This document shows positions 50,301 to 53,300 of a stretch of 64,000 nt of DNA, piece after piece. Source of the DNA: Escherichia coli. Its GTDB lineage: Bacteria > Pseudomonadota > Gammaproteobacteria > Enterobacterales > Enterobacteriaceae. The position numbers are program-made. Where the stretch lies: NCBI RefSeq assembly GCF_030384885.1, contig NZ_CP128613.1; one strand, 5' to 3'. The stretch's first letter is position 1, and every line of letters starts with the position of its first letter.

Positions 50301-53300
50301 CGCCGGTATTTTGTGGCCGTTCACTGGAACACTGCTTAACCCGGTGGTTGCCGGAGCGGCAATGGCGCTCTCGTCGATCACCGTAGTGAGTAACGCCAAC
50401 CGCTTGCTGCGGTTTAAACCGAAGGAATAAGTATGTCATTGCGGATGCGCTGCTTTAGGGTGGCGCATCTGGCATCGACGCATGCCTGCCGGATGCGGCA
50501 TAAACGCCTTATCCGGCCTACGATTCAGGCACAGGGTTGTAGGCCTGATAAGACGCGTAAGCGTCGCATCAGGCAATGGTGCTCGGATGCCGGATGCGGC
50601 GTGAACGCCTTATCCGGCATCCGAGATGAAGCGATTTTTTGGCCTTACGCGACCTTTTTGCACGTTTTTCCCGGCGTGCCAAATATTTAATCCGTCCCAA
50701 CTCCATTTGCGCCATCCCTCCCCGCGCGCTAGCATGATATTTCACAAAGGGAGGTCGTATGGATCTGTTGTACCGGGTAAAAACGCTTTGGGCCGCGCTG
50801 CGCGGCAATCATTACACCTGGCCTGCTATCGATATCTCTCTTCCCGGCAATCGCCATTTTCATCTGATTGGCAGTATTCATATGGGCAGCCACGATATGG
50901 CTCCCCTGCCCACCCGTTTGCTCAAAAAGCTCAAAAACGCCGATGCGCTGATCGTCGAGGCGGATGTTTCCACCAGCGATACGCCTTTTGCCAATTTGCC
51001 TGCCTGCGAGGCGCTGGAAGAGCGCATTAGCGAGGAGCAATTACAAAATCTGCAAAACATAAGCCAGGAGATGGGTATTTCTCCGTCGCTCTTTTCCACC
51101 CAACCACTGTGGCAAATCGCGATGGTTCTTCAGGCAACGCAGGCGCAAAAACTGGGGCTGCGGGCAGAATATGGTATCGATTACCAGCTATTGCAGGTGG
51201 CGAAGCAACAACATAAACCCGTGATTGAACTGGAAGGGGCAGAAAACCAGATTGCCATGTTGCTCCAGCTCCCTGACAAAGGACTGGCGCTGCTGGACGA
51301 TACGCTGACCCACTGGCACACCAACGCTCGTTTGCTGCAACAAATGATGAGTTGGTGGCTGAATGCACCACCGCAAAATAATGAAATAACGCTGCCGAAT
51401 ACGTTCAGCCAATCGCTGTACGATGTGCTGATGCATCAGCGAAATCTCGCCTGGCGGGATAAACTGCATGCTATGCCGCCGGGGCGCTATGTGGTCGCGG
51501 TCGGAGCTTTACATCTGTATGGAGAAGGGAATTTGCCGCAGATGTTGCGCTAAAAAAATGGCCAATATCGCTATTGGCCCGTCAAAGAGGAATTTCATTT
51601 TTTTATTATTATGCCGTCACTTTAAGCGACGGTGTAACTCGATTGTCGCTCAATCTCACCATCCTGCCAATACTCTTAGGCAAGATGACTCTTTTTTTTG
51701 GACCGCCATCAGGCGTATGCTTGCTTCGTTTTTTTGTTTAAGGCAGGAAAATTATCATGACACCCGCAGTTAAATTACTCGAAAAAAACAAGATTTCGTT
51801 TCAAATCCATACCTACGAGCACGATCCGGCTGAAACCAATTTTGGCGATGAAGTCGTCAAAAAATTAGGTTTGAATCCGGATCAGGTCTACAAAACGCTG
51901 CTGGTCGCAGTGAATGGTGATATGAAACATCTGGCAGTGGCCGTTACGCCGGTCGCCGGTCAACTGGATCTTAAAAAAGTAGCAAAAGCGCTGGGTGCCA
52001 AGAAAGTTGAGATGGCCGATCCGATGGTCGCGCAGCGTTCGACGGGATATCTGGTTGGGGGGATTAGCCCACTGGGGCAGAAAAAACGCCTGCCGACGAT
52101 TATCGACGCCCCCGCGCAAGAGTTTGCCACTATTTTTGTTTCTGGCGGCAAGCGCGGGCTGGACATCGAACTGGCGGCAAGCGACCTGGCGAAGATCCTC
52201 GATGCCAAATTTGCTGATATCGCTCGTCGCGATTAAGTGATGCACACGGAAGATGAGATGTGGAAAGGATTACAGAGACATTAAGTATCGCTTGTGCAGA
52301 TGAGATACCGGATATCGCCTTACTTCGGCAAACATCGAGAGAGAAGGTATTACATCTGCATTTTGCCAGCGAAGCAGAGAGGTATCGTGAGGAATTCGGG
52401 CTGGTGCTGAAAGCACAGCTCGATGAATTTGTTGTTGGCATGCATTCTGCCGACCCGGTTATCAGGATCGCCAGATTAATATCGCTTGAAGAGATTAACC
52501 GCCATCAGGATTTTTTCGAACACTGCGCGAAAGAATATCGTAAGCTGGCGACAGAGCTTATATTTGCATTGGCTGAACAACTGAATGTTGAGATGGCGGA
52601 AAATAACCCGCTAGTTACCTTTGCCCCCTTCAAATGCAACCGTAAGCGAAAAGGCAAAATGGGAAAGTGGCAGTATTGTTTTCACGGTTTTCATTGTGCA
52701 TTTGAGAATAAAAAAACAGAGCAAAATATTGAAGTTCCCCTCGCCTACGGCTTTGATTTCGGCGATCTGGACCCGTATTTTTTTTCCGGATTTATCAAAT
52801 CGACCCCCGACTGGCAGCCTCTGCCAGTGGCTATTTACGATGATTACCACGACGGCAGCAGGATCATTCAACAACTGCTGGCGCTGGGAAAGTTAGAAAA
52901 AATCCCTTCACCGATCCCACAATACACGGGGGTTGCTGCGGTAGATCGGTCCAATGTCGACATCGCAAATTTTCGCTCAACACTGGAGAGTCGCCTGCAC
53001 CGATGTAAATTACGCTGGCTTTTGAAGCGTGTAAAAAATTCACAAAGGAGCGAAAGATGAAATTTGACCATCTTGTTGATGTTAGCTTCCACAATTTTGT
53101 CTTTAACGGAAAATTCGATTTTGTCGAACCGGGGCAAACAATGGCATGGCTGGAACAAAACTTTGTTGAGCCGGACTCTAAAAATGATATGGGAAATGGT
53201 TTTTATATCTGGCTATTTGGCAATGTTGAGTTTCATTTCGAAAGCAACAAGCTATATATGATTTGGTGCGATTATTTGAGCCAAATCCATTTGGGCAAAG

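What the first reader, a model, noticed from the sequence alone, without database searches (positions are those of the whole stretch)
50431..50758. REP cluster between copA and ybaP where K-12 carries ybaQ
The copA-ybaP gap is 328 bp of REP/BIME units. From memory, K-12 has a small HTH gene (ybaQ) between copA and ybaP; no such ORF is present here. This is either a lineage difference or a faulty recollection of the K-12 order.
Basis: established knowledge. Interest (0 to 1): 0.2.

Follow-up and report, generated by a model that had tools for sequence, protein, structure and literature searches.

The report
REP cluster plus ybaQ deletion scar
The gap between the copper pump gene copA and ybaP holds three ordinary E. 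coli REP repeats and the decayed tail of the small antitoxin gene ybaQ, which K-12 and about 89% of E. coli strains still carry and this minor lineage deleted; it is a known kind of strain-to-strain difference.

Summary
The window is E. coli. copA (47926-50430) and ybaP (50759-51553) are separated by 328 bp with no ybaQ gene.

The gap is not all REP. It contains:
- a REP-like hairpin after the copA stop (50440-50474);
- three REPs in alternating orientation (Y 50487-50521, Z 50539-50575, Y 50588-50622);
- a roughly 55-nt decayed 3' remnant of ybaQ on the minus strand (50645-50700);
- the conserved ybaP promoter-like region.

The remnant shows that the allele arose from a K-12-like allele (REPs plus the orphan antitoxin ybaQ). 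A 352-bp deletion at a CCAA microhomology did most of the damage, with a 12-nt and a 1-nt deletion in addition.

The exact junction occurs in 44 of 5426 complete E. coli genomes, including SMS-3-5 (phylogroup F) and CE10. ybaQ is present in 4834 of them, and 1266 also carry the higB-1 toxin. In other Enterobacterales, copA directly precedes ybaP.

REP number at this site varies from 1 to 7 with a 101-bp period, which is typical BIME-2 behaviour. The ybaQ/higB-1 polymorphism is already published (Rousset et al.). The finding is ordinary and of low interest.

The parts
47926..50430 (+). copA, the copper-exporting P-type ATPase gene, upstream of the gap
   Evidence: An 834-aa ORF. It is annotated copA in the near-identical record NZ_CP027579.1.
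50440..50474 (+). REP-like imperfect palindrome just after the copA stop, a candidate copA 3' hairpin. It is shared by the REP-bearing and REP-less E. coli alleles and by E. albertii.
   Evidence: Sequence TGCGGATGCGCTGCTTTAGGGTGGCGCATCTGGCA. It is paired in the MFE fold. It is conserved in K-12, SF-166, the O169 strain and E. albertii.
50487..50521 (+). REP 1, Y type, ending in CTAC (50518-50521)
   Evidence: One mismatch to the Y pattern with N at one position (two against the full Y consensus), with 0 matches expected by chance. It aligns with the first K-12 REP.
50539..50575 (-). REP 2, Z type (the long Z form, which I take to be z2), inverted, beginning with GTAG (50539-50542) on the + strand. 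A 17-nt tail-to-tail linker (50522-50538) separates it from REP 1.
   Evidence: Zero mismatches to the Z pattern. It is part of the naRNA4 model hit.
50588..50622 (+). REP 3, Y type. ATCC (50619-50622) replaces the canonical CTAC, which extends the palindrome to 21-nt arms (50582-50625). A 12-nt head-to-head linker (50576-50587) separates it from REP 2.
   Evidence: Zero mismatches to the Y core. Inverted repeat I2 is 90% complementary. The same variant occurs in ybaQ-bearing strains HS and ATCC 8739. REP 3 is truncated by 25 bp in SMS-3-5.
50645..50700 (-). Decayed 3' remnant of ybaQ (HigA-family antitoxin). The stop-codon complement TTA lies at 50645-50647. There is a 1-nt loss in a T run (50654/50655), a 12-nt deletion (50685/50686), and a 352-bp deletion junction at 50696/50697 within a CCAA microhomology (50697-50700).
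   Evidence: Pairwise alignment to K-12. tblastn matches YbaQ residues 89-111 to 50709-50653, E = 0.006. The identical scar is present in SMS-3-5 and 2013C-4282.
50707..50735 (+). ybaP promoter-like element: TTGCGC (50707-50712), a 17-nt spacer, then TAGCAT (50730-50735). It lies 7 nt downstream of the deletion junction and is intact.
   Evidence: TAGCAT sits at a fixed distance from the ATG in 55 of 58 Enterobacteriaceae loci, mostly preceded by TTGCRC 17 nt upstream. The stringent consensus scan did not call it, so the promoter role is inferred.
50759..51553 (+). ybaP, a TraB/GumN family gene, downstream of the gap
   Evidence: Pfam PF01963, E = 1.8e-43. Annotated ybaP.

Best explanation
The copA-ybaP spacer of this E. 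coli strain is a composite of four parts. First comes the copA 3' hairpin. Second is a small BIME of three REPs (Y, inverted Z, Y). Third is the roughly 55-nt degenerate 3' end of ybaQ. Fourth is the intact ybaP core promoter and leader.

Shown here: the allele derives from a K-12-like allele, meaning a REP array followed by the orphan HigA-type antitoxin gene ybaQ on the opposite strand. A 352-bp deletion between two CCAA tetranucleotides removed the first 277 nt of ybaQ and 75 nt of its upstream region. A 12-nt deletion, a 1-nt deletion and a few substitutions in the remnant are also present. The event is old enough to be shared by 44 of 5426 complete genomes, including phylogroup F strain SMS-3-5.

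Inferred history of the locus:
1. copA was directly followed by ybaP, with a REP-like hairpin, across Enterobacterales.
2. A Y-Z REP pair was already present before the E. coli / E. albertii split.
3. The higB-1/ybaQ toxin-antitoxin module was inserted in E. coli.
4. The toxin was lost in most lineages.
5. ybaQ was then lost independently at least twice.

Inferred function: loss of ybaQ is tolerated because its cognate toxin is absent. The REP array now lies between two same-strand genes instead of two convergent ones. By analogy with REP325, it most likely acts on the copA transcript as a 3' stem-loop block to exonucleases and as a partial, possibly Rho-assisted, terminator that limits read-through into ybaP. 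ybaP would keep its own promoter. REP number at the site changes in 101-bp (Y+Z) steps by unequal recombination or slippage.
For: - K-12 has ybaQ between copA and ybaP with 5 REPs.
- The window aligns to K-12 on both sides of the missing 352 bp. It retains K-12's REP-to-ybaQ spacer and 52 nt of the ybaQ 3' end.
- The exact 48-nt junction is found in 44 genomes, one copy each, all chromosomal. SMS-3-5 is phylogroup F, ST354 (PMC11537424).
- ybaQ is present in 4834 of 5426 genomes, and higB-1 plus ybaQ in 1266.
- In 107 loci from other Enterobacterales species, copA and ybaP lie on the same strand, the median gap over all 114 loci measured is 136 bp, and none has a YbaQ hit.
- E. albertii shares the left REP junction.
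- An independent ybaQ deletion with a different junction occurs in 184-188 genomes.
- REP counts at the site are 1, 2, 3, 5 and 7 with a 101-bp period.
- Rousset et al. report that ybaQ is essential only where higB-1 is present.
- REP325 acts as a dual terminator and mRNA stabiliser, and REP-containing tandem gene pairs show upstream-biased expression.
- The gap RNA is strongly structured, z = -8.1.
- The ybaP promoter-like motif is conserved across genera.
Against: - No expression data exist for this allele, so the terminator/stabiliser role is by analogy only. Harris et al. stress that REP effects depend on context.
- No intrinsic-terminator-like site is detected in 50300-50900.
- The order of the toxin loss, the REP changes and the ybaQ deletion cannot be fully resolved from the alleles sampled. 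The right-hand breakpoint is compatible with a parent that either had or lacked higB-1.
- I tested absence of ybaQ only within the 64-kb window. Absence from the rest of this strain's genome is inferred from the census figures.
Confidence: 0.85

Rival explanations
1. This is an ancestral empty site: the lineage never had ybaQ, and the REPs simply occupy the original copA-ybaP spacer.
For: Other Enterobacterales, including E. albertii, have copA next to ybaP without ybaQ. A real candidate for an empty-site allele does exist in E. coli: the 98224 type shares its right-hand sequence with E. albertii.
Against: The window lacks the ancestral 'TTTCGTTTCAAAGC...CTGAACAAG' sequence. It carries instead K-12's REP-to-ybaQ spacer plus 52 nt of the ybaQ 3' end, including the stop codon.
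Confidence: 0.03
2. ybaQ was excised by REP-dependent recombination, either by the REP-associated tyrosine transposase (TnpA-REP/RAYT) cutting near the BIME or by REP-REP recombination.
For: In vitro, TnpA-REP cleaves at C|T dinucleotides more than 400 nt away from a BIME on single-stranded DNA and catalyses strand exchange (PMC3333891). The BIME lies 22 nt from the ybaQ stop.
Against: Neither breakpoint lies in a REP or a linker. The junction is a plain 4-nt CCAA microhomology, typical of slippage or illegitimate recombination. A second, independent ybaQ deletion arose in a background with no REPs at all.
Confidence: 0.08
3. The absence of ybaQ is an assembly artefact, such as a collapse or misjoin at repeats.
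For: REP arrays are repeat-rich and their copy number can be mis-assembled.
Against: The same junction is present in 44 independent complete genomes, including the reference strains SMS-3-5 and CE10. The breakpoints lie in unique sequence, not in REPs.
Confidence: 0.01
4. The REP pair is primarily a gene for a naRNA4-like nucleoid-associated RNA that works with HU to condense the chromosome.
For: The Rfam naRNA4 model scores 84.6 bits (minus strand) and 62.3 bits (plus strand), both above the gathering score of 59.5. Qian et al. 2015 (PMC4550694, listed) proposed this role for REP325.
Against: The model is essentially a generic Z-Y REP pair. Harris et al. 2026 found that REP325 and naRNA4 have no measurable effect on nucleoid compaction or on REP-REP contacts.
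Confidence: 0.04

Closest known systems
BIME-2 type REP arrays of E. coli (Gilson/Bachellier nomenclature; Ton-Hoang et al. 2012, PMC3333891)
   Same: REPs of 35-37 nt that are imperfect palindromes. Y and Z units alternate in inverted orientation with short linkers. GTAG/CTAC tetranucleotides are present on REP 1 and REP 2. The array is tandemly amplified in 101-bp steps, and the copy number differs between strains (1 to 7 REPs at this site).
   Different: Only 1.5 BIME units are present here. REP 3 has lost CTAC (now ATCC). I assigned the Z unit to z2 rather than z1 from memory of the consensus, not from a test against it.
REP325 / naRNA4 (Rfam RF02564) in the yjdM-yjdN operon
   Same: The Z-Y pair matches the full 77-nt model above the gathering score. 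After the ybaQ deletion, the array sits in the 3' UTR of an upstream gene, between two same-strand genes, as REP325 does.
   Different: REP325 has six repeats of two units each, whereas this site has three REPs. No transcript or expression data exist for this locus. The downstream gene here appears to have its own conserved promoter.
The K-12 copA-ybaQ-ybaP locus and the higB-1/ybaQ toxin-antitoxin polymorphism (Rousset et al., bioRxiv 10.1101/2020.05.25.114553)
   Same: Same chromosomal site and same flanking genes. This is the same kind of presence/absence variation: toxin plus antitoxin, antitoxin alone, or neither.
   Different: The window carries a specific ybaQ-deleted allele with a 3' scar. 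It is found in 0.8% of complete genomes, including phylogroup F strain SMS-3-5. The paper mentions loss of both genes only in phylogroup D and describes the F strains it tested as toxin-bearing.

Membership tests
REP / BIME-2 | Units of 30-40 nt forming an imperfect palindrome and matching the E. coli Y or Z REP consensus | tested here: met
   Y matches at 50488-50517 (1 mismatch to the N-containing pattern) and 50589-50618 (0 mismatches). Z matches at 50543-50574 (0 mismatches). Zero matches were expected in shuffles. The hairpins appear in the fold.
REP / BIME-2 | Conserved GTAG (or complementary CTAC) tetranucleotide at the foot of each REP | tested here: met
   CTAC at 50518-50521 (REP 1) and GTAG at 50539-50542 (REP 2), read directly. 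REP 3 is the exception: it has ATCC at 50619-50622.
REP / BIME-2 | Y and Z REPs alternate in inverted orientation, are separated by short linkers, and lack the long L linker with an IHF site | tested here: met
   Orientations are +, -, + with linkers of 17 and 12 nt. The IHF consensus WATCAANNNNTTR is absent from the gap.
REP / BIME-2 | Tandem multi-copy array whose copy number varies between strains | tested here: met
   The direct repeat has a 101-bp period. REP counts at this site: E. albertii 1, SMS-3-5 2, window 3, K-12 5, HS 7.
REP / BIME-2 | The Z unit is of the z2 subtype, not z1 | tested here: inconclusive
   The unit is the long 37-nt form GCCTGATGCGACGCTTACGCGTCTTATCAGGCCTAC, which I recall as z2. 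The published consensus is in a figure that the tools do not hold.
BIME-1 (RIB/RIP) | A single Y-z1 pair flanking a conserved long linker with an IHF binding site | tested here: not met
   There is no IHF consensus in the gap. The linkers are 12 and 17 nt, and the array is amplified in other strains.
Rfam RF02564 naRNA4 | Score at or above the family gathering threshold over the full-length model | tested here: met
   84.6 bits (minus strand) and 62.3 bits (plus strand) against a gathering score of 59.5, covering model positions 1-77 of 77. This shows sequence and structure membership only. The claimed nucleoid function is disputed.
ybaQ (HigA-family antitoxin gene) | An intact ORF of about 113 aa with an N-terminal HTH domain | tested here: not met
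   Only about 52 nt of the 3' end remain, with a frameshift and a 12-nt deletion. The HTH-coding part is deleted.
Intrinsic (Rho-independent) terminator | A GC-rich stem-loop immediately followed by a T run | tested here: not met
   The scan of 50300-50900 finds none. The T6 run at 50635-50640 begins 9 nt after the REP 3 stem.

The most novel reading that the evidence does not exclude
The ybaQ deletion moved the BIME from between two convergent genes to between two same-strand genes. Together with the CTAC-to-ATCC change, which lengthens the REP 3 stem and removes the RAYT recognition tetranucleotide, this could give the lineage a distinct setting of copA mRNA stability and of read-through into ybaP. 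That would be a small case of regulatory rewiring of copper efflux caused by toxin-antitoxin decay.
Probability: 0.1. Interest if true: 0.25.

Novelty: already known. Interest (0 to 1): 0.08.

Why it matters
It matters little beyond correct annotation. It shows that a missing ybaQ here is a real deletion that left a scar, not a mis-assembly and not an ancestral state. It adds detail to a published example of toxin-antitoxin decay: toxin lost first, then the orphan antitoxin lost at least twice independently. It also identifies copA-ybaP as a small recombination hot spot with at least five alleles in E. coli. The junction 48-mer could serve as a lineage marker. If REPs tune 3' UTR behaviour as recently proposed, this locus offers natural alleles with 0, 2, 3, 5 and 7 REPs downstream of copA for testing that idea.

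Tried and rejected
- The 85-aa plus-strand ORF (50433-50690) and the 41-aa minus-strand ORF (50610-50735) were considered as possible small genes. I rejected both. The first is a REP read-through with no Pfam hit and no RefSeq annotation. The second lacks the YbaQ HTH region.
- The consensus promoter and terminator scan of 50300-50900 found nothing. The ybaP promoter was inferred from cross-genus conservation instead.
- No IHF site occurs in the gap, so BIME-1 is rejected.
- tblastn for HigB-1 and YbaQ elsewhere in the window gave only chance-level hits.
- Rfam on the alternative 98224-type insert gave only a sub-threshold TwoAYGGAY hit.
- NCBIfam and PADLOC searches on the two-gene insert between ybaK and ushA gave nothing.
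E. fergusonii, E. marmotae and E. ruysiae were therefore not sampled, and E. albertii is the only non-coli Escherichia seen.
- The first Python call failed because the locus files had not yet been written. One paper reading failed on a search term that was too short.

Full report
**What is at the coordinates.** The window is E. coli. The ORF at 47926-50430 (+, 834 aa) is copA, and the ORF at 50759-51553 (+, 264 aa) is ybaP, a TraB/GumN protein (Pfam PF01963, E = 1.8e-43). The closest complete genome is strain 2013C-4282. It has the same 328-bp gap, differs at one base in it, and annotates no gene there.

**Anatomy of the gap.** The Y REP consensus matches at 50488-50517 and 50589-50618, and the Z consensus matches at 50543-50574 on the opposite strand. 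None is expected in shuffled sequence. Reading directly gives these units:
- REP 1 (Y, 50487-50521), ending in CTAC.
- A 17-nt linker.
- REP 2 (Z, inverted, 50539-50575), starting with GTAG.
- A 12-nt linker.
- REP 3 (Y, 50588-50622), where ATCC replaces CTAC and extends the palindrome to 21-nt arms (50582-50625).

A further REP-like hairpin (50440-50474) follows the copA stop. The Z-Y pair matches the full-length Rfam naRNA4 model at 84.6 bits, against a gathering score of 59.5. As RNA, 50425-50660 folds into a row of hairpins with a z-score of -8.1.

So the REP cluster is real. However, it covers only about 136-183 of the 328 bp, not all of it.

**Is ybaQ really missing, and does K-12 have it there?** In K-12 C3026 the order is copA (+), ybaQ (-, HigA-family antitoxin, 113 aa), ybaP (+).

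In the window, tblastn with YbaQ finds only a 23-residue match to its C-terminus inside the gap (50709-50653, E = 0.006). It finds nothing credible elsewhere, and HigB-1 finds nothing. The 85-aa plus-strand ORF across the REPs has no Pfam hit and reads like translated REPs.

**The gap carries a ybaQ scar.** Pairwise alignment with K-12 shows the window is collinear with K-12 through three segments: the copA hairpin, the REPs, and the 22-nt spacer between the last REP and the ybaQ stop codon. It then continues for 52 nt into the ybaQ 3' end (window 50645-50696, stop complement TTA at 50645-50647).

Relative to K-12 the window has these changes:
- One 101-bp Y+Z unit fewer.
- A 1-nt loss in a T run.
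- A 12-nt deletion.
- About four substitutions in the remnant.
- A 352-bp deletion that removes ybaQ codons 1 to about 93 and 75 bp upstream of the gene.

The two ends of the 352-bp deletion share the tetranucleotide CCAA (K-12 ...GTCCCAA|TTCTT... and ...TCTCCAA|CTCCATT...). This pattern fits slippage or illegitimate recombination and involves no REP. SMS-3-5 carries exactly the same scar but has a 25-bp deletion inside REP 3.

**Population picture.** Counts among 5426 complete E. coli genomes:

| Allele or feature | Genomes |
|---|---|
| Exact 48-nt junction of this window (one chromosomal copy each) | 44 |
| ybaQ present | 4834 |
| higB-1 toxin gene plus ybaQ | 1266 |
| Different ybaQ deletion in a REP-less background (O169:H41 type) | 184-188 |
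| ≥99% identical copy of the dispersed repeat that fills the gap in the third ybaQ-less allele (98224 type) | 339 |

The 44 junction carriers include SMS-3-5 and CE10. SMS-3-5 is listed as phylogroup F, ST354 in PMC11537424.

In the third ybaQ-less allele, the hairpin and REPs are replaced by a roughly 330-bp copy of a dispersed repeat. I take the 339 genomes in the last row to be those carrying this allele at the copA-ybaP site; I did not verify the location of those copies.

The three ybaQ-less classes sum to 571. That is close to the 592 genomes with no ybaQ match, which suggests these genomes have no ybaQ elsewhere. This last point is an inference.

Rousset et al. (bioRxiv 10.1101/2020.05.25.114553) already described ybaQ as the antitoxin of higB-1. 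They found it essential only in B2 and F strains that keep the toxin, retained without the toxin in most phylogroups, and lost together with the toxin in phylogroup D.

**Deeper history.** A degenerate copA C-terminus pattern recovered 120 loci from other species. In 107 of them, copA and ybaP are adjacent on the same strand. The median gap over all 114 loci measured is 136 bp, and no non-E. coli locus has a YbaQ homologue.

E. albertii has a 265-bp gap. It starts with the same hairpin and the same junction into a Y REP and a partial Z REP as K-12 and the window. It then continues with sequence that in E. coli survives only in the 98224-type allele.

I infer three things from this. The REP pair predates the E. 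coli / E. albertii split. The toxin-antitoxin module was inserted later in E. coli. The window's allele is a tertiary state: module inserted, toxin lost, then antitoxin deleted.

REP number at the site runs 1 (E. albertii), 2 (SMS-3-5), 3 (window), 5 (K-12) and 7 (HS), in 101-bp steps. This is the strain-variable tandem behaviour that defines BIME-2 (PMC3333891). No IHF site is present, so it is not BIME-1.

**What the deletion left intact.** All E. coli alleles converge again at AACTCCATTTGCG. From there to the ybaP ATG the sequence is nearly invariant. Across 58 Enterobacteriaceae loci, 55 carry TAGCAT at a fixed distance from the ATG, mostly preceded by TTGCRC 17 nt upstream. In the window these elements are at 50707-50712 and 50730-50735, and the junction lies 7 nt upstream of the first. 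The stringent scan did not call a promoter, so this is an inferred promoter, not a demonstrated one.

**How it most likely works.** The structural and evolutionary account above is shown by sequence. The function of the REPs is inferred.

No intrinsic terminator is detectable. [quoted passage not shown] 2026 preprint).

The ybaQ deletion changed this BIME's context from convergent (copA toward ybaQ) to tandem (copA then ybaP). The most likely role is therefore protection of the copA 3' end and attenuation of read-through into ybaP. Loss of ybaQ should be neutral because its toxin is absent. The nucleoid-RNA role implied by the Rfam family name is disputed.

**Verdict.** The interpretation as a lineage difference is supported. 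The feature is an ordinary BIME plus a pseudogene scar at a known polymorphic toxin-antitoxin site. It is already known in kind and of low interest.

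Noticed in passing
L005:1801-2228 (E. coli 98224, copA-ybaP gap); K-12 copy at L127:1201-1471: About 6% of E. 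coli genomes have neither REPs nor ybaQ here. They carry a roughly 330-bp GC-rich dispersed repeat starting at the copA stop codon. The repeat occurs 1-8 times per genome (median 3). It is unannotated in K-12 between aqpZ and lysO. Its only Rfam signal is a sub-threshold TwoAYGGAY hit (31.5 bits against a gathering score of 43). I did not establish what this element is.
   Followed up: partly
L005:2160-2228 and L009:3240-3359 (E. albertii): The 98224-type allele and E. albertii share the sequence TTTCGTTTCAAAGC...CTGAACAAG upstream of ybaP, which the ybaQ-bearing alleles lack. These E. coli genomes may never have had higB-1/ybaQ, rather than having lost them as stated for phylogroup D in Rousset et al. 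I did not determine the phylogroup of these genomes.
   Followed up: partly
L004:1801-1971 (E. coli O169:H41): There is an independent deletion of ybaQ in a REP-less background. Its junction is GCACGC|ATACAAAC and it keeps 22 nt of the ybaQ 3' end. It is present in 184-188 of 5426 genomes.
   Followed up: yes
window 52260-53434: A two-gene insert lies between ybaK and ushA: a DUF6896 protein (266 aa) and an overlapping 125-aa ORF with no family hit. It is absent from K-12 and present in 774 of 5426 genomes. It has no NCBIfam or PADLOC match, and its function is unknown.
   Followed up: partly
window 50707-50735: A promoter-like motif, TTGCRC-17 nt-TAGCAT, is conserved upstream of ybaP across Enterobacteriaceae genera (TAGCAT in 55 of 58 loci). 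Every rearrangement at this locus stops just upstream of it.
   Followed up: partly
window 51552-51635 (-) and 5316-5404 (-): Rfam hits above the gathering score: sroB (the sRNA I know as ChiX), 82.1 bits, between ybaP and ybaK; and AgrB antisense RNA, 51.9 bits.
   Followed up: no
window 5853-5882, 14392-14477, 63642-63671: Other REPs occur in the window. There is a Z-Y pair at 14392-14477, and single Y-type units at 5853 and 63642.
   Followed up: no
window 50619-50622: REP 3 has ATCC instead of the CTAC tetranucleotide whose complement, GTAG, TnpA-REP needs for binding. The two changes are compensatory and lengthen the stem. The same variant is found in ybaQ-bearing phylogroup-A-type strains HS and ATCC 8739 (112 genomes match with one mismatch).
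   Followed up: partly
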